This document shows, piece after piece, positions 799 to 37,650 of a stretch of DNA of 64,000 nt. The notes below the pieces were generated by a model, which was not told the origin of the DNA, ran no database searches, and was given only the letters and a program-made list of their open reading frames with translations. Made by a program: the position numbers and the translations under genes. The DNA is taken from the NCBI GenBank assembly GCA_037131105.1, contig JBAXRQ010000001.1:765465-829464 (forward strand), read 5' to 3'. Each line of letters opens with the position of its first letter. Position 1 is the stretch's first letter. This stretch comes from a bacterium. Its GTDB lineage: Bacteria > Patescibacteriota > UBA1384 > CAILIB01.

Positions 799-2064
799 CT
801 AAGCCGTTTCAGCCGCCAACTCCAGGGAGGACATCCCGATATGCCGTGGTGTGGTCTTGAGCAAGATAAGCACTATTCCGATACTAACCAGGGCCAGCAC
901 CGCAAAGGCGGCACCGTTCCCCAGGTTCTCCGCCAGCAGACCGGCCGCTATGGGACCGATGACAAAGCCGATGTTGGTAGCGAAGTCATTGATGCCCACT
1001 ATCTCCTTCTCGGCCGTAGGCGCCTCGGCAATATAGTCGGTAAAGGCCCCGTTCACCGACGGCGTGGCGATGGAGATGAAGAAGGCGGCGCAGAAGACCA
1101 GTCCGATAATCAGCACCGGATTGGTGACGAATGCCAGCGGCAGCAGCAGGGCCGACCCTATCCCCAGCGAGTAGAACGCCGTCCGCTTCTTGCCCCGCTT
1201 ATGGGTAATGGCGCCGATGCACCAGCCCACGCCCAGGATTGGCACCTCGTAGGCCATCAGCAGCAGTCCAGACAGACCCCCTACCCCGTGCAGACTCTGG
1301 GCGTAGAGCGGGCCGATGGTCCAGAAGAAGGAGTCGAAAACGCAGAGCAGCACTGTCACAATCAGCACTGGCCGTAAGAGATTAGAAGCGGCAGCCCACA
1401 GATAGAACTCTTTTTGTAGATTGACCGTCCTGCAGCACAACTCCTGCTCCGGCGTCTTGGGATGCTGTTTGCGCACCATATACAGAAGTAGCAAGAAGAA
1501 CAGGAAACCGAAGCCTAGGAATATCCAGGAGAACTCAAACGCCTGCAGGTTTACCGTCTCTACCACTACCATGCCGGCAAGCAGAGGCGCTACCAGGTAA
1601 CCCAACGCCCGAAATACTTGCAGCACTCCCGAACCAGAAGCATGCTCACTGCTCTTGAGGTTCAGGCCTGCAAAATTGAACCTGCCGAAATTAAACAGAT
1701 CGTAATAAATCCCCCACAGTCCCATAGCCAACAAAAAGATCCAGGCCGACTGGGCCTTGAAGAGGATGAGCGGGTAAATGGTGCAGATGACAAACAGGAT
1801 CATGAAGATGAGCCGGTAGTCGCTCTTCCTGAAGATCCGGCAGATGAAGAAGTCGAAGAGGGCACCGGCCACCGAGGAGCTGCCAATGATCAGGCCCATG
1901 GTCGCCTCGCTGAAGCCGTTCTGCACCAGCAAAAGCGGCGTCACATAGGTAAGGATGCCGTCGAAGACGCAGAAGAAGAATATGACCAGCGAGAAGGCGT
2001 ACAGCGGCTTGTGCTTCAGGCCGTACTGGCGGACATGGTCCTCGAGATGGCGAAGAGTAGGCAT
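799..2064 (-). CDS. MFS transporter
   Basis: 421-aa ORF, about 12 hydrophobic helices, typical MFS loop motifs. Confidence 0.8.
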   Translation of the reverse strand: MPTLRHLEDHVRQYGLKHKPLYAFSLVIFFFCVFDGILTYVTPLLLVQNGFSEATMGLIIGSSSVAGALFDFFICRIFRKSDYRLIFMILFVICTIYPLILFKAQSAWIFLLAMGLWGIYYDLFNFGRFNFAGLNLKSSEHASGSGVLQVFRALGYLVAPLLAGMVVVETVNLQAFEFSWIFLGFGFLFFLLLLYMVRKQHPKTPEQELCCRTVNLQKEFYLWAAASNLLRPVLIVTVLLCVFDSFFWTIGPLYAQSLHGVGGLSGLLLMAYEVPILGVGWCIGAITHKRGKKRTAFYSLGIGSALLLPLAFVTNPVLIIGLVFCAAFFISIATPSVNGAFTDYIAEAPTAEKEIVGINDFATNIGFVIGPIAAGLLAENLGNGAAFAVLALVSIGIVLILLKTTPRHIGMSSLELAAETA

Positions 2065-28498: not shown

Positions 28499-28741
28499 CC
28501 CGACAACGCTGAGCAGAGGAACCCTGCAGGCCACAGTAATTAACCACCTAATGCTTCAAGAGGTACTTGGGCGAAGGACACTGAAAGTGTTTTTCACCCA
28601 TGACCGATACCGAGCGCATAGAGCTCAAGATAGAGCAGAAGCTAAGGCCACTTATTGCGGACACTGCGGAGCGTATGAAGGTAGCAAGGGAAATCAATGC
28701 CCTAGCCAAAATCCTCATCAGCGCCTACCGGACACAAGCCC

Positions 28742-30319
28742 ATGATAAGCGCCAACCCGCCACAATCCGAACTAAAGCGAGCAATCGTCTACATCCGAGT
28801 CTCCACCAAGGAACAAGTTGACGAGGGAAACAGCCTGGCTACCCAGGAGCGGCTTTGTCGTGACTACGCCAAGAAACAGGGTATAACGGTCAAAGAGGAA
28901 GGTATCTTCAGAGAGGAGGGCGAAAGCGCCAAGACCGCCAACCGGACGGTGCTCAAGAAGATGATTACCTATGCCAGTCTCCATAAGAACGAGATCGACT
29001 GTCTGCTTATCTACCGGATTGACCGGCTAGCTCGGGAAACCAGGGACTACAGCCATCTGAAAGGCTTTTTCGGCTCACTTGGCATCAGGGTTATTTCAAT
29101 TTCCGAGAACTTTGAAGACGACCCTGTAGGCCGCTTTATCGAGAATACTCTGGCCGGCGTCGCCCAGCTTGATAATGAAATCAGGGCTGAGCGCAGCAAG
29201 AACGGCATGGTTGACGCTGTTCGGGAAGGTCGCTGGGTCTGGAAAGCCCCTCTGGGCTATATAAACGCTCGGGTACATGGCAAGAAGAACATTAAGCCTA
29301 ATCCAGCTGGCAATACGGTAACGCTCCTACGTGAAGCCTGGGAACTGGTGGATAGCGGCTTTTCTATCGAGGCCACCCGCCGCATAATGGAAAAGAAGGG
29401 CTTGGTAAGCGAACGAGGAAAAGCAGTCAGCAAGAGCCAGTTTCAAAAGCTTTTTCACCATCCCATTTACAAAGGGGTAATCGACAAGTTTGGCCTCACC
29501 ATTCTCAGTGACGCTATTGAACCCATCGTACCGCCAGAACTGTTTGATCGGGTGCACCTGAAGCTGACCGGCGCTTATCACTTCCCCGAGAAATACCTAA
29601 AGGCCAACCCTGAGTTTCCACTACGGGGTGTCATGTTCTGCAAATACGGCCACAGAATGACTGCTAGCGCCCCTAGAGGCAATGGCGGGCGGTATCCTAA
29701 GTACCACTGCCATTTGTGTCGAGGAGTAGGCACGAGCCACAATAAAACCACCGTAGAGACCCGCTTTAAGACATACATCAACTACATGAGCTACCCAGGA
29801 GAGCTCAAGGAGGGCTTAGTAGTGGCCATTATGGGAAACTGGGAGCAAGAACAGCAAGTAAACCGCAAGCAGATCGCCAAGCTCAAGAAGCGATTACTAG
29901 AGCTAGACGCTGAGGATAACGAAATAGGCCGCAAGAACATTGCCGGCGTCTTTAGCGATGAGCACGCCAAGAAGATGTTGGCGGCGAACAGCCTGGAGCG
30001 TACCAAGATAAACCTAGAGCTCAGTGGCTACGACTATTTAGATCAGGATTTAGAAGAAATGATTGAAGATGGCGCAAGCTCTTTGGAGGACATAAGCGCT
30101 TTGTGGGAAGGACTTGAGGACATCCACATCAAGCAACGGTTCCAAAAATGGCTATTTCCCCTTGGGGTGGTGTATGACGGAGAGAAATTTGGAACCAGCC
30201 AATTACCCCTTTGCATATCTATTAAAAAAGACCTTTCCAACGAAAAGTCTCTTTTGGTGGACCCCACCGGATTCGAACCGGTCGCCTCCTCGGTGCAAAC
30301 GAGGCGCTCTACCAAATGA
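28742..30319 (+). CDS. large serine recombinase; 3' end overlaps tRNA-Ala on the opposite strand
   Basis: VYIRVSTKEQ, ...RIDRLAR, recombinase and zinc-ribbon regions; the last ~20 codons are read through the tRNA. Confidence 0.8.
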   Translation: MISANPPQSELKRAIVYIRVSTKEQVDEGNSLATQERLCRDYAKKQGITVKEEGIFREEGESAKTANRTVLKKMITYASLHKNEIDCLLIYRIDRLARETRDYSHLKGFFGSLGIRVISISENFEDDPVGRFIENTLAGVAQLDNEIRAERSKNGMVDAVREGRWVWKAPLGYINARVHGKKNIKPNPAGNTVTLLREAWELVDSGFSIEATRRIMEKKGLVSERGKAVSKSQFQKLFHHPIYKGVIDKFGLTILSDAIEPIVPPELFDRVHLKLTGAYHFPEKYLKANPEFPLRGVMFCKYGHRMTASAPRGNGGRYPKYHCHLCRGVGTSHNKTTVETRFKTYINYMSYPGELKEGLVVAIMGNWEQEQQVNRKQIAKLKKRLLELDAEDNEIGRKNIAGVFSDEHAKKMLAANSLERTKINLELSGYDYLDQDLEEMIEDGASSLEDISALWEGLEDIHIKQRFQKWLFPLGVVYDGEKFGTSQLPLCISIKKDLSNEKSLLVDPTGFEPVASSVQTRRSTK

Positions 30320-30330
30320 GCTAGGGGCCC
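30255..30330 (-). tRNA. tRNA-Ala(TGC), CCA encoded
   Basis: Cloverleaf with G3:U70, anticodon loop TTTGCAC, T-arm GGTTCGAATCC. Confidence 0.85.
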
Positions 30331-30786: not shown

Positions 30787-31551
30787 ATGCCTGACATAGG
30801 CAGCGACAGCACCGTCCGCCTGGCGGTGATCATCTTCGAGCTCGTCCTGAGCCTCTCCCTCATCGTCTGGATGCGGCGCACCCACCGCAGCGTCACCGAG
30901 GACTGGAGGTTCTATGCCAAGCTGCTGTTCTACGGCGGCCTGACCGCCCTGGCAGCCGGCCTGATTGAGATCCGCTACTCTTTTAACCTTCAGCAGCTCC
31001 AGCTGACCGCCCCGGACGTCATGGCACGCTACGGCACCCTCTACGGCCTGCTGAACAACCTTTCCGGCAGCCTCATCGAGGAGCTGGCCAAGTACACGGT
31101 GGCCGTCTTCACCATCCTGAACGCCAAGCACGTGCACAAGCTGAGCGACGCCATTATCTACATGATCATCATCGGGCTGGGCTTCTCGCTGGTCGAGGAC
31201 GTCTTCTTCCTGCTCAATCCCGACACCATCGCCCCCTACCGACTGATCAGCTTCTTCGTCCATTCCGGTACTAGCGCCATCATCGGCTACAGCCTGGGCC
31301 GCTTCATGTCAGGCGTCATCAAGTACTGGGAGGTGTTCCTGGCCATCCTCTGGGCCATTACCCTGCACTTCGCCTACAACTTCTCGGTCAGCGAGACCTT
31401 CCAGTACTCCGGCCTGCTGGTAGCCTTCATCACCATCTACATCTCATTGCAGATCTTCATCCTCTTCCGCCGGGCCATCGAAGAAGAATACCGCCTGGGC
31501 CACCGGTTCCGCGGCGTACCGACCCAGCGGCTGCTCAATCTTCACCAGTAA
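30787..31551 (+). CDS. PrsW-family intramembrane metalloprotease
   Basis: EExxK (IEELAKY), FxxxH (FFVHSG) and HxxxN (HFAYN) motifs in a polytopic membrane protein. Confidence 0.6.
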   Translation: MPDIGSDSTVRLAVIIFELVLSLSLIVWMRRTHRSVTEDWRFYAKLLFYGGLTALAAGLIEIRYSFNLQQLQLTAPDVMARYGTLYGLLNNLSGSLIEELAKYTVAVFTILNAKHVHKLSDAIIYMIIIGLGFSLVEDVFFLLNPDTIAPYRLISFFVHSGTSAIIGYSLGRFMSGVIKYWEVFLAILWAITLHFAYNFSVSETFQYSGLLVAFITIYISLQIFILFRRAIEEEYRLGHRFRGVPTQRLLNLHQ

Positions 31552-31559
31552 CGCCTTCT

Positions 31560-32183
31560 ATGAAACCCTCAAGACTCGAAGCCCTGGCCGACGGCATCTT
31601 CGCCATTGTCATGACTCTGCTGGTATTGGAGATCCACGTCCCCCACCTTGAGGAAGGCCTCAGCCTGGCTACGGCTGCCTCCCATGCCATCACCGACATT
31701 GGACCCAAGCTGGTAAGCTTCATCGTCAGCTTCATGATCCTGGCTATCTACTGGAGCTCGCACCACATGCTCTTCGCCAAGCTGAAGGAGATAAACTTCA
31801 GGTTCATGTGGCTCAATGTCTACTTTCTGATGACTATCAGCCTCATCCCCTTCTCCACCGCCTTCATCGGGTCGTATCCACTGGTGCAGGCCAGCCAGAT
31901 ATTCTATGCTCTTAACCTGATAATCGGCGGCCTCATCCTCTTCCATATGATCAAGTACGCTGTCTTCCACGGCCGGCTGACCGGAGATGAGAGCGCCTCG
32001 CGCGAGTTCAAGATCAATGTGACCGGAAAGATTCTCTTCCCAGCCGCCACCTATCTCCTGGCCATCGCCGTCTCATTCTTTGAGCCGCGCCTCAGCCTAG
32101 CCTTACTGGTGGTGGGACCCCTCATCTACTTCATTCCTATTGATACGAGACTCTGGCAGGCGCTTACCGGGAGGGCACAGTGA
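31560..32183 (+). CDS. TMEM175/DUF1211 family membrane protein (putative K+ channel)
   Basis: Signature RLEALADGIFAIVMTLLVLEI at the N-terminus. Confidence 0.7.
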   Translation: MKPSRLEALADGIFAIVMTLLVLEIHVPHLEEGLSLATAASHAITDIGPKLVSFIVSFMILAIYWSSHHMLFAKLKEINFRFMWLNVYFLMTISLIPFSTAFIGSYPLVQASQIFYALNLIIGGLILFHMIKYAVFHGRLTGDESASREFKINVTGKILFPAATYLLAIAVSFFEPRLSLALLVVGPLIYFIPIDTRLWQALTGRAQ

Positions 32184-32509
32184 GCATAAAGCGTTGGCTG
32201 GCTACTGCGGTCCTTTCACTGATCGGCGGAGCCTGGCTTTCCAATGCCCTGAGTCAGGCCGAATGGACCTACCAGAAGGGAATATACCTCTCCAGCGGCT
32301 GGCCAGGCGGTTACAGCAGGAATCCAGGCCTCGGGTTTCCCTTCACCACTGGCAACAACCCTCCGGCCAGGTGCTTCTGCGCTATCGACCATAACTCCAT
32401 CGCCGATCTTCTCAACGCCATCTTCTACATCGCCCTGGTGTTCATCGTCATAACAGTCATTCAGATAGCTTGGACATCGTTACGCAAAACTATCACTGTC
32501 AGGCAATAA
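32180..32509 (+). CDS. small hypothetical membrane protein
   Basis: 109 aa, two hydrophobic segments; 4-nt overlap with the upstream gene. Confidence 0.4.
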   Translation: MSIKRWLATAVLSLIGGAWLSNALSQAEWTYQKGIYLSSGWPGGYSRNPGLGFPFTTGNNPPARCFCAIDHNSIADLLNAIFYIALVFIVITVIQIAWTSLRKTITVRQ

Positions 32510-32520
32510 CCCCACCCATT

Positions 32521-33261
32521 ATGGAACATGGCCACACCGTAGTAGAGAAAAAGTCCGCCGGCCACCTAGCCGCAATGGCTGCCCTTATCCTTATCCCCGC
32601 CCTGGTGGCCGGAGGAGGCACCTACGCTTACCAGCGTAACCAGCAGACCAAGTCAGAGAATGACCTCCAGGCCCAGATCACTACTTTGAAGGGCAAGCTT
32701 GCCGCTACGCCCACGCCAAGCCCTACCGCCAGCGCCACGGCCGTGATCTCGACTCCTGATACTACCACGGCAACATGGACCACTTACACCAACGCCACGT
32801 ACGGCTTTACCTTCAAATATCCCAGCACCTACAAGGGCGTAAAACAGTTCCTTAACCAGACCACTCAGAAGCTGGAGTCTTCGGACGACCTTCTGCAGCT
32901 GACCACCAACCAAGATGCTACATCGGTTGGGTCTGAAGGATGCAATGCCCAGTACGAGATGATAATTGAGGAGAACCAGGGGAAATTCGATACTCTGGGG
33001 GCCGCTTCGTATTATGAACATTTCACAGATCCAACCATTAAGACAGTGAAAATAGGTGGAAAGCCCGCCTTCCGCATCACCGGCACCAACAATGACCAGG
33101 TGGCGTATGGGGTCGTGGGCTCGAAGAATGAGATGGCCGTCATCAATATGGACAGCCATATACTCCACTTCAGTACCTGTGAAGGAGGCAGCACTACCCC
33201 TTATACGCCAAATGTCGCGGAATACGAGAAGATCCTGTCAACCTTCACGTTCTCGAAATAG
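32521..33261 (+). CDS. hypothetical membrane-anchored secreted protein
   Basis: N-terminal TM, Thr/Pro/Ser-rich linker, then a globular domain; terminator follows. Confidence 0.5.
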   Translation: MEHGHTVVEKKSAGHLAAMAALILIPALVAGGGTYAYQRNQQTKSENDLQAQITTLKGKLAATPTPSPTASATAVISTPDTTTATWTTYTNATYGFTFKYPSTYKGVKQFLNQTTQKLESSDDLLQLTTNQDATSVGSEGCNAQYEMIIEENQGKFDTLGAASYYEHFTDPTIKTVKIGGKPAFRITGTNNDQVAYGVVGSKNEMAVINMDSHILHFSTCEGGSTTPYTPNVAEYEKILSTFTFSK

Positions 33262-33275
33262 ATAGCTACGGAATA

Positions 33276-33316
33276 CAGAAAGGCTCCGGCGTTATGCCGG
33301 AGCCTTTCTGTATATT
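33276..33316 (+). terminator. intrinsic terminator (15-bp perfect stem)
   Basis: cagaaaggctccggc-gttat-gccggagcctttctg followed by tatatt. Confidence 0.5.
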
Positions 33317-33319
33317 GAG

Positions 33320-33671
33320 CGGTCAGTATCTTTTGGTGGGCGAACGAACCATATCCGCCCGTCAAGCCGTTGCACGTCATTATGCGCTTCGCGCCGCTTC
33401 CTGCCCGAGCGCAGGAGCGCGATCGTCGAGTTCTTATATGCCCTCCGATCCGACGCGGTTACTTCCGCTGAACGTTTATCAAGCTCTGGTGGGCGATGAT
33501 GGACTTGCCAGGTCAGACGGCAACGTTCGCTGAAGGGCTCACGAGCGAACCATCGACCTCGTCATTATGGCGGGTCAGTATCTTTTGGTGGGCGATGATG
33601 GACTTGCCAGGTCAGATGGCAACGTTCGCTGAAGGGCTCACGAGCGAACCATCGACCTCGTCATTATGGCC
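33320..33671 (-). repeat. three tandem tRNA-Ile 3'-fragment copies with a ~40-nt T-loop insertion (two 99-bp units at 33473..33671 plus one degenerate copy)
   Basis: Each unit, read in tRNA sense, is GCCATAATGACGAGGTCGATGGTTCG[insert]AGTCCATCATCGCCCACCA; the units differ by 1 nt. Confidence 0.6.
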
Positions 33672-33729
33672 GAGTTTCTATATACATTCCGATCCGGCCC
33701 GTTTGCCTCCTTGATTCATAGTTCTCTCA

Positions 33730-33806
33730 TGGTGGGCGATGATGGACTCGAACCATCGACCTCGTCATTATCAGTGACGCGCTCTAACCACCTGAGCTAA
33801 TCGCCC
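33730..33806 (-). tRNA. tRNA-Ile(GAT), CCA encoded
   Basis: GGGCGATTAGCTCAGGTGGTTAGAGCGCGTCACTGATAATGACGAGGTCGATGGTTCGAGTCCATCATCGCCCACCA. Confidence 0.85.
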
Positions 33807-33840
33807 TCCATGAGAGAACTAAGTTTTGAAAGATGCAAAC

Positions 33841-33877
33841 GATCAGTGACGCGCTCTAACCACCTGAGCTAATCAGA
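33841..33877 (-). repeat. duplicated 5' fragment of tRNA-Ile (acceptor/D-arm/anticodon-stem portion)
   Basis: Exact copy of tRNA-Ile nt ~5-36, lying upstream of the intact gene. Confidence 0.5.
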
Positions 33878-34039
33878 CGAGGAGCAATACTGGCGATCAT
33901 GCGTGCATGAACATCAGGATTGCGACGAGTCTGATATCAGAGATATCGCCCTCCAAAAGATACCGATATATCAAACTCGTTGCCGGCCCTTCGTAAGCAT
34001 CCTTCTCGTCCTAATTTGACCTTCCCACTCTACCAAAAA

Positions 34040-34084
34040 ATAAGGTTATAGGAAAGCCCCGGACGCTACGGCCCCGGGGCTTTC
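34040..34084 (-). terminator. bidirectional intrinsic terminator (10-bp GC stem flanked by A- and T-runs)
   Basis: gaaagccccgg...ccggggctttc; downstream of the 34098..34400 gene. Confidence 0.5.
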
Positions 34085-34097
34085 TGTGACATCGCAC

Positions 34098-34400
34098 TCA
34101 CATTGTCATGATGCGTACATCTTCGGCAGGAACGTTGAAGGCCTTAGCAAAGGATTCTCTGCACTTTTCCAGGTCCTCCATTACCTGGCGAGAGGCGCGC
34201 ACCCTTACTACAAGCCCCTGTTCATTCACCCTAATAGAGCATTTCGAGACTTTGTGCGACGTTAGGATCGCAGCCGTCATCCCTTTTGCTGTACGGGGAA
34301 GATTCAGCGTATAGCCTCCGAACGTTACGAACAACCCGCTATGCTCACCTAGTGGGCTACGCCGTTCCTTTTCTTTAGCTTTTAACGGATGTCGCGCCAT
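34098..34400 (-). CDS. hypothetical protein
   Basis: 100-aa ORF followed by a terminator. Confidence 0.4.
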   Translation of the reverse strand: MARHPLKAKEKERRSPLGEHSGLFVTFGGYTLNLPRTAKGMTAAILTSHKVSKCSIRVNEQGLVVRVRASRQVMEDLEKCRESFAKAFNVPAEDVRIMTM

Positions 34401-35332: not shown

Positions 35333-35433
35333 GGTGATAATGCTCTACCACTGAGCTACTCCCGCGTTCCAACTGCATAATCAGGTCCGACTATGCGGGA
35401 GACAGGACTCGAACCTGCGACCTTTACCACCAC
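35333..35433 (-). other. two halves of one tRNA in permuted order: 3' half (35394..35433), 27-nt spacer, 5' half (35333..35365)
   Basis: The 5' half GCGGGAGTAGCTCAGTGGTAGAGCATTATCACC and the 3' half GTGGTGGTAAAGGTCGCAGGTTCGAGTCCTGTCTCCCGCA have complementary acceptor (GCGGGAG/CTCCCGC) and anticodon-stem (TTATC/GGTAA) strands. Confidence 0.4.
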
Positions 35434-35505
35434 AGCGGATGACGAGACTCGAACTCGCGTCTTCACCGGCGAAAGTGAGGCTCTAACCAATTGAGCTACA
35501 TCCGC
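35434..35505 (-). tRNA. tRNA with atypical anticodon arm (4-bp stem with a mismatch, or an 8-nt loop TTTCGCCG); possibly Arg(TCG)
   Basis: Perfect acceptor (GCGGATG/CATCCGC), D-arm and T-arm (TTCGAGT); the anticodon region is CTCAC-TTTCGCCG-GTGAA. Confidence 0.5.

Positions 35506-35870: not shown

Positions 35871-37650
<1,780 letters not shown>

What the first reader, a model, noticed from the sequence alone, without database searches (positions are those of the whole stretch)
33320..33880. Stacked tRNA-Ile fragments: three tandem 3'-half copies carrying a T-loop insertion, plus a 5'-half duplicate, flanking the intact tRNA-Ile
Downstream of the intact tRNA-Ile(GAT) 3' end are two 99-bp units that differ at one base, and a third eroded copy. 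Each unit reproduces the tRNA from the anticodon loop to CCA but replaces the T-loop with a ~40-nt insert (GGTTCG[CTCGTGAGCCCTTCAGCGAACGTTGCCGTCTGACCTGGCA]AGTCC). Upstream of the gene is a separate exact copy of tRNA positions ~5-36. This looks like a graveyard of att sites from serial integration and excision at tRNA-Ile. No integrase remains nearby.
Basis: seen in the sequence. Interest (0 to 1): 0.6.

Follow-up and report, generated by a model that had tools for sequence, protein, structure and literature searches.

The report
tRNA-Ile gene nested in older copies
The working isoleucine tRNA gene of this ultra-small (Patescibacteria-type) bacterium sits inside the broken remains of an older copy of the same gene, a Russian-doll arrangement that recurs in many related genomes and points to small DNA cassettes that repeatedly insert into this gene while bringing their own replacement copy.

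Summary
All features are on the minus strand. Two 99-nt units differ at one base, there is a third eroded 3' half, and an exact 33-nt 5' copy lies upstream. An independent assembly gives the same sequence.

It holds tRNA nt 1-7 plus a 14-nt leader that is complementary to the trailer after the 3' halves. Joined together, the pieces rebuild a complete outer tRNA-Ile, 77/77 identical to the intact gene. The outer gene is interrupted at three places:
- nt 7, by a 70-nt hairpin
- the anticodon, by a 171-176-nt cassette that carries the intact gene with its own 13-bp leader/trailer helix
- the T-loop, by a 40-nt insertion rather than a replacement

The same nesting, at the same anticodon position, occurs in at least 12 other Patescibacteria loci, including a syntenic relative. 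Other relatives have the uninterrupted state. In several loci the inner and outer alleles differ. Outer copies range from pristine to decayed, and an intact copy is always present.

I read the array as relics left by serial insertion of small cassettes that carry a replacement tRNA, followed by a tandem duplication. It is not a classical integrase att graveyard. The insertion enzyme is unknown. I found no description of this arrangement in the literature searched.

The parts
34018..34045 (-). Conserved upstream motif TTATTTTTTGGTAGAGTGGGAAGGTC (extended -10-like TGGTAGAGT), about 75 nt 5' of the outer gene. Probable promoter of the whole array.
   Evidence: The same TTTTTT(C)TGGTAGAGT motif precedes tRNA-Ile in the syntenic relatives L060 and L062. 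Promoter function is inferred; the simple sigma-70 scan did not call it.
33952..33966 (-). Leader2 (TCGGTATCTTTTGGA) of the outer, older tRNA-Ile gene.
   Evidence: It forms a 22-nt inverted repeat, 91% complementary, with trailer2 plus the acceptor 3' strand (I2/I3). The two are paired in the minimum-free-energy fold.
33945..33951 (-). Outer gene nt 1-7 (GGGCGAT, acceptor 5' strand).
33875..33944 (-). 70-nt hairpin insert i1, which splits the outer gene after nt 7. The junction is redundant by GAT.
   Evidence: It folds on its own at -17.2 kcal/mol. There is no other copy in the window.
33842..33874 (-). Outer gene nt 5-37 (GATTAGC...CACTGAT), an exact 33-nt copy of the intact gene that ends inside the anticodon.
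   Evidence: D5 (100%).
33671..33841 (-). Inserted cassette of 171 nt (176 nt if the redundant junction bases are counted). It consists of a 5' arm, leader1, the intact tRNA-Ile, trailer1, a 3' arm and a small terminal segment. The arms CGTTTGC...GCAAACG pair with each other.
   Evidence: fold -67.1 kcal/mol, arms and leader/trailer paired; same architecture and same insertion point as 11 cassettes from other loci.
33719..33821 (-). Intact tRNA-Ile(GAT) (33730-33806) with leader1 and trailer1, which extend the acceptor stem by 13 bp (AGTTCTCTCATGG / CCATGAGAGAACT).
   Evidence: ARAGORN and Rfam, 71.3 bits, I1 (22 nt, 95%); 12 of 12 flanking positions paired.
33586..33670 (-). 3' half copy B. 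GCC + tRNA nt 36-58, then the 40-nt T-loop insert (33605-33644), then nt 59-77.
   Evidence: (D1, D3).
33572..33585 (-). Copy of trailer2 (AAAGATACTGACCC) between copies B and C. It completes the 99-nt unit.
   Evidence: D6 (23 nt, 100%, with 33321-33343).
33487..33571 (-). 3' half copy C, with the T-loop insert at 33506-33545. It differs from copy B at one base, which lies inside the insert.
33422..33486 (-). Flank after copy C. Its distal 45 nt are 73% identical to the 3' arm and terminal segment of the present cassette, so it may be the 3' end of an earlier cassette.
   Evidence: D4.
33384..33421 (-). 38-nt GC-rich hairpin that abuts the eroded 3' half. It belongs to a small repeat family.
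   Evidence: A second copy (28 of 30 bases) lies at 10830-10859. It folds at -19.6 kcal/mol.
33318..33383 (-). Eroded 3' half A (ATAATGACG..GGTTCG-TT-CGCCCACCA) followed by trailer2. 24 nt replace AGGTCGAT, and 10 nt are deleted exactly at the T-loop G57/A58 site.
   Evidence: (D6, D7).
33273..33313 (.). Perfect 18-bp hairpin between the array and the convergent ORF 32470-33261. Possibly a bidirectional transcription stop.
   Evidence: I4. The terminator scan did not call it because there is no T run, so this role is inferred.

Best explanation
The region is one transcription unit at the ancestral tRNA-Ile position. It contains a single working tRNA-Ile gene embedded in the wreck of older copies of the same gene.

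Shown: an older (outer) tRNA-Ile gene, with its own leader/trailer helix, was split inside its anticodon (between A35 and U36, with 2 nt of ambiguity) by a 171-176-nt cassette. The cassette carries a complete tRNA-Ile gene, its own 13-bp leader/trailer helix, and mutually complementary outer arms. The outer gene also carries a 70-nt hairpin insert after nt 7 and a 40-nt insert in the T-loop.

Inferred:
- The outer 3' half, already carrying the T-loop insert, was later duplicated in tandem (99-nt unit).
- The eroded 3' half, preceded by a cassette-like flank, is left from an earlier round.
- Because the inner gene recreates the target site, insertion can repeat. Halves then pile up on both sides like Russian dolls, and deletions trim them.
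- Only insertions that bring a functional copy survive, because the gene is essential.
- The outer pieces are non-functional DNA that is co-transcribed with the inner tRNA. The inner tRNA is released by normal tRNA end-processing, probably helped by the leader/trailer helix.
- The process is site-directed and active across Patescibacteria.

The enzyme is unknown. Candidates are a homing-type nuclease with copy-repair from a nested allele, or a trans-acting transposase or recombinase acting on the hairpin ends.
For: 1. The pieces 33945-33951, 33842-33874, 33645-33667 and 33586-33604 concatenate to a tRNA 77/77 identical to the intact gene, and ARAGORN calls it tRNA-Ile(GAT).

2. Complementarity is layer-specific: leader1/trailer1 22 nt at 95%, leader2/trailer2 22 nt at 91%. 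The 521-nt transcript folds as nested helices, z = -5.5.

3. The outer gene, not the inner one, lies where relatives have their single gene, downstream of the conserved motif TTTTTT(C)TGGTAGAGT.

4. Uninterrupted states exist. L062 has the identical tRNA-Ile (77/77) with no relics, and L065 also has none. L060 has only short relic traces upstream.

5. L066, which shares the 16S / tRNA-Ile / PrsW / tRNA-Ala synteny, has the same triple interruption: D-arm insert, anticodon cassette with an intact tRNA, and an 81-nt T-loop insert.

6. Eleven further cassettes of 118-221 nt, from GTDB and JGI contigs, are inserted exactly at CACTGA^TAATGACG. All have complementary ends and none has an ORF.

7. 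17 of 48 tRNA-Ile genes in 47 species loci have fragments of themselves within 450 nt.

8. Inner and outer alleles differ, while the outer 5' and 3' acceptor strands stay mutually complementary, in L035/L054, L055, L056, L026 and L033. So the inner gene is not a local copy of the outer gene.

9. Outer copies range from pristine (window, L009, L035) to decayed (L049, L020), and they collect extra hairpin inserts (L015, L024, L026, L056, L066). Every locus still has an uninterrupted gene: 47 of 47 GTDB loci and 6 of 6 JGI loci.

10. The leader/trailer helix is tied to loci with fragments: 15 of 18 against 8 of 37, Fisher p = 2e-5. It is absent from cross-locus controls: 31% against 4.3% with a run of at least 6 pairs.

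11. Partial repeats of GTCACTGA(T) next to the site in L024, L026, L056, L060 and L066 fit repeated hits at one site.
Against: - No enzyme, no autonomous element and no donor copy of the window's cassette was found.
- The window's cassette lacks the conserved termini (CCCGCC...GGCGGGCAGG) of the best-sampled family, so several unrelated cassettes must share one target.
- Only one 5' half is present against three 3' halves, so the multi-layer history needs extra deletions and a tandem duplication. The copy of trailer2 between B and C is not explained by a simple duplication.
- The outer pieces carry no substitutions. That fits a recent event, but it equally fits gene conversion or selection.
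- Mobility is inferred from comparison only.
- No close relative (same genus) with an empty site at this exact locus could be retrieved. The metagenome scan for trailer2 gave 0 hits.
Confidence: 0.6

Rival explanations
1. Classical att-site graveyard. Integrative elements with tyrosine or serine integrases entered tRNA-Ile one after another, each bringing a 3' tRNA part in its attP. The elements were later lost, leaving stacked attR-type 3' halves.
For: - The 3' halves start in the anticodon loop, and a second hot spot is in the T-loop. By established knowledge (Williams 2002, as cited in PMC9897764) these are the usual crossover sublocations.
- Partial tRNA copies are the normal footprint of integrated elements (PMC9897764).
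- The same window holds what looks like a real case at tRNA-Ala: the intact gene at 30255-30330, a 17-nt 3' relic at 10782-10798, and between them two large serine recombinases, a helicase, a PD-(D/E)XK protein and reverse-transcriptase fragments.
- The 2-3-nt junction redundancy (AT, GAT) would suit a serine-recombinase crossover.
Against: - 5' pieces upstream complete the 3' pieces into one gene.
- Leader and trailer match within layers, which a hybrid attL gene would not show.
- The insert is 171-176 nt, holds a whole tRNA gene and has no recombinase. The same holds for 11 cassettes elsewhere.
- The conserved-terminus family has no duplicated dinucleotide at its junctions.
- Three viral-contig scans gave 0 hits.
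Confidence: 0.15
2. Local rearrangement only. Tandem duplication of the tRNA-Ile region, replication slippage at hairpins and deletions produced the fragments, with no mobile or foreign DNA involved.
For: - The B/C pair is certainly a tandem duplication (99-nt period, one mismatch).
- In the window, the inner and outer tRNA parts are identical.
- By my own knowledge, tandem repeats that contain tRNA 3' ends are known from the E. coli tyrT locus.
Against: - Leader1/trailer1 and leader2/trailer2 are unrelated in sequence.
- In five other loci the inner allele differs from the outer allele at paired acceptor positions.
- The same exact breakpoint recurs in distant lineages.
- The pieces abut without loss, which random deletion would rarely give.
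Confidence: 0.12
3. Functional interrupted gene. The inserts are introns, in the manner of archaeal multi-intron tRNAs. The outer exons are spliced into a second tRNA-Ile, and the inner tRNA is an intron-borne gene.
For: - The inserts are short hairpins at the D-arm, anticodon loop and T-loop, as in Thermoproteales tRNA introns (PMC4390854, PMC10714607).
- The outer exons are pristine in the window and in several other loci.
- The ends of the cassettes covary.
- The predicted fold brings the exon ends together.
Against: - Outer copies are decayed in L049 and L020.
- No locus has only an interrupted gene.
- The GC-hairpin family occurs in both orientations relative to the tRNA, which fits DNA insertion rather than a splicing signal.
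- The junction geometry differs between tRNA-Ile and tRNA-Ala cassettes and does not form a canonical bulge-helix-bulge (my reading).
- Three 3' halves against one 5' half cannot all be spliced.
- Rfam finds no intron or ribozyme in the region.
Confidence: 0.07
4. Assembly artefact: mis-joined reads from several tRNA-Ile loci.
For: The region is repeat-rich, and one Logan contig (L002) ends inside the repeat at 33516.
Against: An independent ENA assembly (L003) is 100% identical across 31425-34211. The same architecture is present in many unrelated assemblies.
Confidence: 0.01

Closest known systems
tRNA gene fragments (attL/attR) left by integrative elements: prophages, ICEs and genomic islands that target tRNA genes (Reiter 1989 and Williams 2002, as cited in PMC9897764)
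   Same: Insertion into a tRNA gene is compensated by tRNA sequence that the incoming DNA brings. Partial copies remain as direct repeats. The breakpoints lie in the anticodon loop and the T-loop. Fragments can stack after repeated events.
   Different: Here the incoming DNA carries a whole tRNA gene with both flanks. It is only 118-221 nt long, encodes nothing else, and sits as a simple insertion. The old gene is therefore left in two halves on both sides, instead of one hybrid gene plus one distal 3' repeat.
Homing introns and homing-endonuclease elements, including the introns in Patescibacteria rRNA genes (Tsurumaki 2022, as cited in PMC10714607)
   Same: A fixed insertion point in a very conserved RNA gene, a patchy distribution with empty-site alleles in relatives, and apparent spread between lineages.
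   Different: No ribozyme core, no endonuclease ORF and no evidence of splicing. Function is kept by a spare gene copy rather than by excision, and the target is regenerated inside the insert, so there is no immunity to re-invasion.
Archaeal disrupted tRNA genes: multiple-intron, split and permuted tRNAs, and mobile bulge-helix-bulge introns (PMC4390854; Fujishima 2010, as cited in PMC10714607)
   Same: Several short hairpin inserts at the D-arm, anticodon-loop and T-loop positions of one tRNA gene, with related inserts found in different tRNA genes.
   Different: The host is bacterial. An uninterrupted copy is always present. The outer copies decay. Inserts occur in both orientations. No canonical bulge-helix-bulge motif was recognised.
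Small palindromic insertion elements: Rickettsia palindromic elements, yeast mitochondrial GC clusters, and non-autonomous IS200/IS605 derivatives (from my own knowledge, not tested against models)
   Same: Short GC-rich hairpins with conserved ends and no coding capacity, able to sit inside RNA genes, with no clear target-site duplication.
   Different: The large members carry a complete tRNA gene and share one precise target in that same gene. Copy number per genome appears low. The window's cassette is unique within the 64 kb searched.
tRNA-linked tandem repeats, such as the 178-bp repeats after E. coli tyrT that contain the tRNA 3' end (from my own knowledge)
   Same: Head-to-tail units downstream of a tRNA gene, each holding a copy of the tRNA 3' part.
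   Different: This accounts only for the B/C pair. It does not explain the 5' pieces, the inserts or the nesting.

Membership tests
Integrase att-site scars at a tRNA gene | A partial copy of the tRNA 3' part lies as a direct repeat downstream of the complete gene. | tested here: met
   Three 3' halves lie at 33334-33670, in the same orientation as the gene.
Integrase att-site scars at a tRNA gene | Element DNA with a recombinase gene lies (or lay) between the complete and the partial copy, and attP with the tRNA part is found on an element. | tested here: not met
   Only 48 nt separate the trailer helix (33719) from copy B. There is no ORF in the array. Viral-contig scans for the fragment gave 0 hits. 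The nearby serine recombinases belong to an island at tRNA-Ala.
Integrase att-site scars at a tRNA gene | The complete gene is a hybrid (resident 5' part and leader, element-derived 3' part and trailer), and no 5' fragments are displaced upstream. | tested here: not met
   The leader and trailer of the intact gene form a perfect 13-bp helix. The displaced leader2 matches the displaced trailer2. 5' pieces lie at 33842-33874 and 33945-33951.
Homing-type insertion element | The same insertion point in a conserved gene across lineages, with uninterrupted alleles in relatives. | tested here: met
   Eleven cassettes sit at CACTGA^TAATGACG, and the window and L066 are at the same place within 2-3 nt. 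Uninterrupted genes are present in L062, L065 and about 30 GTDB loci.
Homing-type insertion element | It encodes, or depends on, a site-specific endonuclease, and the insert is removed from the RNA by splicing. | tested here: not met
   No cassette contains an ORF. Rfam finds no intron model in 33200-34150. Dependence on a nuclease supplied in trans cannot be tested with these tools.
Archaeal-type tRNA introns (bulge-helix-bulge) | A bulge-helix-bulge motif at both exon-intron junctions. | tested here: inconclusive
   By eye, tRNA-Ile cassettes of the CCCCGC type could form a 3-bp helix (CUG/CAG) flanked by a 1-nt and a 4-nt bulge. The tRNA-Ala cassette in L049 has a different geometry. No canonical 3-4-3 motif was seen, and no dedicated search tool was available.
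Archaeal-type tRNA introns (bulge-helix-bulge) | The interrupted gene is needed, being the only copy or under purifying selection. | tested here: not met
   An uninterrupted tRNA-Ile(GAT) is present in every locus examined. The outer copies are decayed in L049 and L020.
Archaeal-type tRNA introns (bulge-helix-bulge) | A splicing endonuclease and an RNA ligase are encoded in the genome. | not tested
   Only 64 kb of a genome of about 0.95 Mb were available.
Group I intron in a bacterial tRNA anticodon loop | A conserved ribozyme core of at least 200 nt. | tested here: not met
   The cassettes are 118-221 nt including a 75-77-nt tRNA. There was no Rfam hit at E <= 10.
MITE-like or IS-derived non-autonomous transposon | Terminal inverted repeats or terminal hairpins. 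| tested here: met
   The cassette ends are mutually complementary in all 12 cases. One family has conserved termini, CCCGCC...GGCGGGCAGG.
MITE-like or IS-derived non-autonomous transposon | A target-site duplication and many dispersed copies per genome. | tested here: inconclusive
   There is 2-3 nt of junction redundancy (AT, GAT) in the window and L066, and none in the conserved-terminus family. The window's cassette and the 40-nt insert have no other copy in 64 kb. Only the 38-nt hairpin has a second copy.
Tandem tRNA-linked repeat | Head-to-tail units that contain the tRNA 3' end. | tested here: met
   99-nt period, 1.9 copies, 98% matches. This applies only to 33487-33670.

The most novel reading that the evidence does not exclude
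The outer gene is not dead. In this reading, Patescibacteria tRNA genes carry true introns at several positions, removed by an undescribed bacterial cut-and-rejoin pathway. One primary transcript then yields two tRNA-Ile molecules, one from the spliced outer exons and one released from inside the anticodon-loop intron. The small hairpin inserts with conserved ends would be a mobile intron family.
Probability: 0.06. Interest if true: 0.95.

Novelty: new variant of a known kind. Interest (0 to 1): 0.68.

Why it matters
If small cassettes that carry a whole replacement tRNA gene really do home into the anticodon loop of the resident gene, this would be a new way for selfish DNA to occupy an essential single-copy gene without splicing and without a recombinase of its own. 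The cassette disrupts the gene and replaces it in the same step.

It would also explain three things:
- how tRNA alleles can be exchanged between distant Patescibacteria lineages
- why tRNA and rRNA loci of these reduced genomes are littered with fragments and hairpin inserts
- why automated tRNA annotation in these genomes can miscall relics as genes (one relic in L008 was called a tRNA by both ARAGORN and Rfam)

The fixed target, CACTGA^TAATGACG, gives a concrete substrate for looking for the responsible nuclease or transposase.

Tried and rejected
1. Scans of viral contigs gave 0 hits for the T-loop-interrupted junction, the plain tRNA-Ile 3' half and the conserved cassette junction.

2. 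A genome-collection scan with the trigger-factor protein found no relative. The second scan, with a tRNA 23-mer, gave the 47 loci.

3. A metagenome scan for an 'empty site' carrying trailer2 gave 0 hits. Syntenic relatives were reached instead through trigger-factor homologues.

4. An Rfam E-value search of 33200-34150 found only the tRNA itself. The other hits were weak and below their gathering scores, mostly chance matches to the hairpin at 33273-33313.

5. I looked for dispersed copies of the window's inserts in the window and in all fetched loci. Only the 38-nt hairpin has a second copy.

6. An automatic finder of element ends was too permissive, accepting G-T pairs and long distances. 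I used it only for the clear cases.

7. I considered a CRISPR-associated-transposon homing spacer for the 33-nt 5' copy. I dropped it because there are no cas or tns genes and the copy fits exactly as part of the outer gene.

8. I considered a crossover by the nearby serine recombinases because of the AT/GAT junction redundancy. I rejected it as a general explanation because the conserved-terminus cassettes lack any shared dinucleotide.

9. An 11-nt tRNA-Ile match at 20361 next to a palindrome is within chance expectation, about 2 per window.

10. The exact order of events that produced copies B, C and A, including the trailer2 copy between B and C, could not be reconstructed uniquely.
Full report
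OBSERVATION

All features are on the minus strand, and below they are read in tRNA sense. ARAGORN and Rfam place one intact tRNA-Ile(GAT) at 33730-33806. Downstream of it, TRF reports a 99-nt period over 33487-33670 (1.9 copies, 98% matches). The repeat finder reports two 85-nt copies that differ at one base (D1).

Each copy runs from the anticodon (ATAATGACG...) to CCA. Each carries 40 extra nucleotides between G57 and A58 of the T-loop. This is an insertion, not a replacement, and the insert has no other copy in the window. A third, eroded 3' half lies at 33334-33383. Upstream of the gene is an exact 33-nt copy of gene nt 5-37 at 33842-33874 (D5). An independent assembly is 100% identical across 31425-34211.

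At 33945-33966 lies TCGGTATCTTTTGGA-GGGCGAT. This is the first seven nucleotides of the tRNA, preceded by a leader that is the reverse complement of the trailer CCAAAAGATACTGA. That trailer follows 3' half B and the eroded half A (I2/I3, D6). The intact gene has a different, perfectly matched pair, AGTTCTCTCATGG before it and CCATGAGAGAACT after it (I1).

Joining 33945-33951, 33842-33874, 33645-33667 and 33586-33604 gives a 77-nt sequence identical to the intact gene, and ARAGORN calls it tRNA-Ile(GAT). So the fragments form one complete outer gene with its own leader/trailer helix, interrupted three times:
- after nt 7, by a 70-nt hairpin
- inside the anticodon, by a 171-nt segment (176 nt if the redundant junction bases are counted) that contains the intact gene
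- in the T-loop, by the 40-nt insert

The 171-nt segment folds as a long hairpin. Its outer arms (CGTTTGC...GCAAACG) and the leader/trailer helix are paired, and the tRNA cloverleaf sits at the tip. The whole 521-nt transcript folds into the nested arrangement with z = -5.5.

CONTEXT AND ORGANISM

The array lies downstream of a 16S rRNA gene (35874-37650) and a tRNA cluster. tRNA-Ala is 3.4 kb further on, and there is no 23S gene in the window. The exact trigger-factor protein of the window is on a 949-kb NCBI MAG contig, and homologues at 63% identity are named Patescibacteria group bacterium. A 23-nt stretch of the tRNA is found almost only in Patescibacteria genomes. The 16S gene is at most 77% identical to the 16S genes of the fetched loci and carries an insertion of about 305 nt.

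COMPARATIVE EVIDENCE

A scan of one genome per species for the tRNA 23-mer gave 47 loci. In many of them the intact tRNA-Ile is flanked upstream by 5' fragments and downstream by 3' fragments of tRNA-Ile. By a strict criterion (exact matches of at least 12 nt to the locus's own gene within 450 nt), 17 of 48 genes have such fragments.

Eleven cassettes from these loci and from six JGI metagenome contigs are inserted exactly between CACTGA and TAATGACG. They are 118-221 nt long, contain a complete tRNA-Ile and no ORF, and have mutually complementary ends. The window's cassette has the same place, size and architecture.

Closer relatives were reached through trigger-factor homologues.
- L062 has the identical tRNA-Ile (77/77) with a leader/trailer helix of about 10 bp and no relics.
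- L065 has a single gene and no relics. L060 has a single gene with only short relic traces upstream.
- L066 shares the 16S / tRNA-Ile / PrsW / tRNA-Ala order. It has an outer tRNA-Ile interrupted in the D-arm (53 nt), in the anticodon (a cassette with an intact tRNA-Ile and a 9-bp leader/trailer helix) and in the T-loop (81 nt). This is the window's pattern without the tandem duplication.

The motif TTTTTT(C)TGGTAGAGT precedes the single gene in L060 and L062. In the window it precedes the outer gene. So the outer gene occupies the ancestral position.

IS THE OUTER GENE ALIVE?

Several observations say it is not.
- Every locus examined keeps an uninterrupted tRNA-Ile(GAT) within about 250 nt of the interrupted one.
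- Outer copies range from pristine (window, L009, L035) to clearly decayed (L049, L020).
- Outer copies accumulate additional small hairpin inserts (L015, L024, L026, L056, L066), while inner genes do not.
- One GC-rich hairpin family occurs in both orientations relative to the tRNA.
- In the window there are three 3' halves for one 5' half.

IS THE INNER GENE A LOCAL COPY?

In L035/L054, L055, L056, L026 and L033 the inner and outer genes differ at acceptor-stem positions, while the outer 5' and 3' strands remain complementary to each other. The outer gene was therefore a complete gene of a different allele before the inner one arrived. In the window the tRNA parts are identical, but the leaders and trailers are unrelated.

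The leader/trailer helix is a property of the cassette. A run of at least 6 pairs is found in 31% of tRNA-Ile genes against 4.3% of cross-locus controls. It is concentrated in loci with fragments (15 of 18 against 8 of 37, p = 2e-5). L016 and L027 differ by a compensatory pair in this helix.

MECHANISM

Shown:
- nested insertion at one precise site
- recurrence across lineages
- existence of uninterrupted alleles
- differences between inner and outer alleles
- decay of outer copies

Inferred: a site-directed process inserts a small cassette into the anticodon of the resident gene. Only cassettes that bring a working tRNA-Ile survive. Because the inner gene restores the target, the process can repeat and pile up halves on both sides. 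Three things fit earlier rounds: the flank after copy C is 73% identical to the present cassette's 3' end (D4); the eroded half A carries trailer2; and partial GTCACTGA(T) repeats lie beside the site in L024, L026, L056, L060 and L066. The B/C pair is a later tandem duplication, since the T-loop insert is shared and only one base differs.

The enzyme is unknown. Two routes seem possible. One is a homing-type double-strand break repaired from a nested allele, using the conserved tRNA halves as homology. The other is a trans-acting transposase or recombinase that recognises the hairpin ends. The T-loop G57/A58 site is a second hot spot. It is hit in copies B and C. It is the left edge of the deletion in half A. 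It is also the insertion point in tRNA-Ala relics in the window (10782-10880) and in L060, and the breakpoint in L012.

WHY NOT THE CLASSICAL att MODEL?

Integration through an attP that carries a tRNA 3' part gives one hybrid complete gene and one distal partial copy, with the element in between (PMC9897764). Here there are displaced 5' pieces, the flanks match layer by layer, the insert is a whole gene with no recombinase, and no element carrying the fragment was found.

The window does contain what looks like a classical case at tRNA-Ala. About 19.5 kb, with two large serine recombinases, a helicase, a PD-(D/E)XK protein, an AAA_5 ATPase and reverse-transcriptase fragments, lies between the intact tRNA-Ala and a 17-nt 3' relic.

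LITERATURE

Five full-text searches found papers on archaeal disrupted tRNA genes, on introns in Patescibacteria rRNA genes, and on tRNA fragments as att scars. None described tRNA genes nested in tRNA genes or these hairpin inserts in Patescibacteria. The library is incomplete, so prior description cannot be excluded.

VERDICT

The best reading (confidence 0.6) is relics of serial, nested gene replacement by small cassettes that carry a tRNA-Ile gene, plus a tandem duplication. This is a new variant of tRNA-targeting mobile DNA. Interest is 0.68.

Noticed in passing
window 10782-30330: A tRNA-Ala 3' relic (ATCCGGTGGGGTCCACC, 10782-10798, minus strand) lies about 19.5 kb downstream, in tRNA sense, of the intact tRNA-Ala (30255-30330). 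A second possible relic, GTCCACCAAAGA, lies near 10940. Between them are two large serine recombinases (20888-22468, 28742-30319), a 1172-aa helicase, a PD-(D/E)XK protein, an AAA_5 ATPase and split reverse-transcriptase ORFs (16646-17628). It looks like a mobile or defence island integrated at tRNA-Ala.
   Followed up: partly
window 28742-30319 and L066 18864-20389: The 3' end of the large serine recombinase ORF overlaps tRNA-Ala on the opposite strand by about 65 nt. The same overlap is present in the relative L066, which suggests a recombinase family tied to this tRNA-Ala site.
   Followed up: partly
window 10799-10880 (minus strand) and L060 about 20580-20710: The tRNA-Ala relic is itself interrupted right after the T-loop GGTTCG by a 61-nt insert that starts with CTCG, like the tRNA-Ile 3' halves. 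In L060, whose tRNA-Ala is identical, a relic with a T-loop insert of about 115 nt sits 60-180 nt after the gene.
   Followed up: partly
window 10830-10859: A second copy (28 of 30 bases) of the GC-rich hairpin that abuts the eroded tRNA-Ile 3' half (33392-33421). This is a small palindromic repeat family in this genome.
   Followed up: partly
window 35340-35430 (minus strand): tRNA fragments in permuted order: a 3' piece GGTCGCAGGTTCGAGTCCTGTCTCCCGCA, then 28 nt, then a matching 5' piece GCGGGAGTAGCTCAGTGGTAGAGCA. They lie directly before tRNA-Asp, and no anticodon arm is present.
   Followed up: no
window 35434-35505 (minus strand): A tRNA-like gene (Rfam 57.3 bits) with an abnormal anticodon loop. 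ARAGORN reports a two-base anticodon, and by eye the loop has 8 nt.
   Followed up: no
window about 37039-37345, inside the 16S rRNA gene 35874-37650: The 16S gene is 1777 nt against a 1533-position model. Alignments to other 16S genes break between gene positions 306 and 612, which indicates an insertion of about 305 nt.
   Followed up: partly
L009, L024, L026, L033, L051, L052, L055, L056 (coordinates): A family of 30-35-nt GC-rich hairpin inserts with conserved ends (CCCGCC...GGCGGGCAGG or CCCCGC...GCGGGGCAGG) sits in the D-loop, anticodon stem and T-loop of tRNA relics, in both orientations. The same ends bound the tRNA-carrying cassettes.
   Followed up: partly
L049 about 1540-1720 (plus strand): tRNA-Ala(TGC) is nested in the same way. 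A 142-nt cassette with CCCCGC...GCGGGGCAGG ends is inserted after A37 of an outer tRNA-Ala, so nesting is not limited to tRNA-Ile.
   Followed up: no
L066 15420-15480 and 15750-15830: The D-arm and T-loop inserts of the outer tRNA-Ile share the pattern GCCAATACC, a hairpin, then GTTAGTGA. This is a second family of small inserts, different from the families in the window and in the GTDB loci.
   Followed up: no
L008 5872-5949: A tRNA-Ile relic that lacks its 5' acceptor strand is called a tRNA by both ARAGORN and Rfam (39 bits). This is an example of relics being annotated as genes.
   Followed up: no
L060 16962-17621: Directly after the 16S match (15315-16750) there is a group II intron domain hit and a LAGLIDADG ORF.
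   Followed up: no
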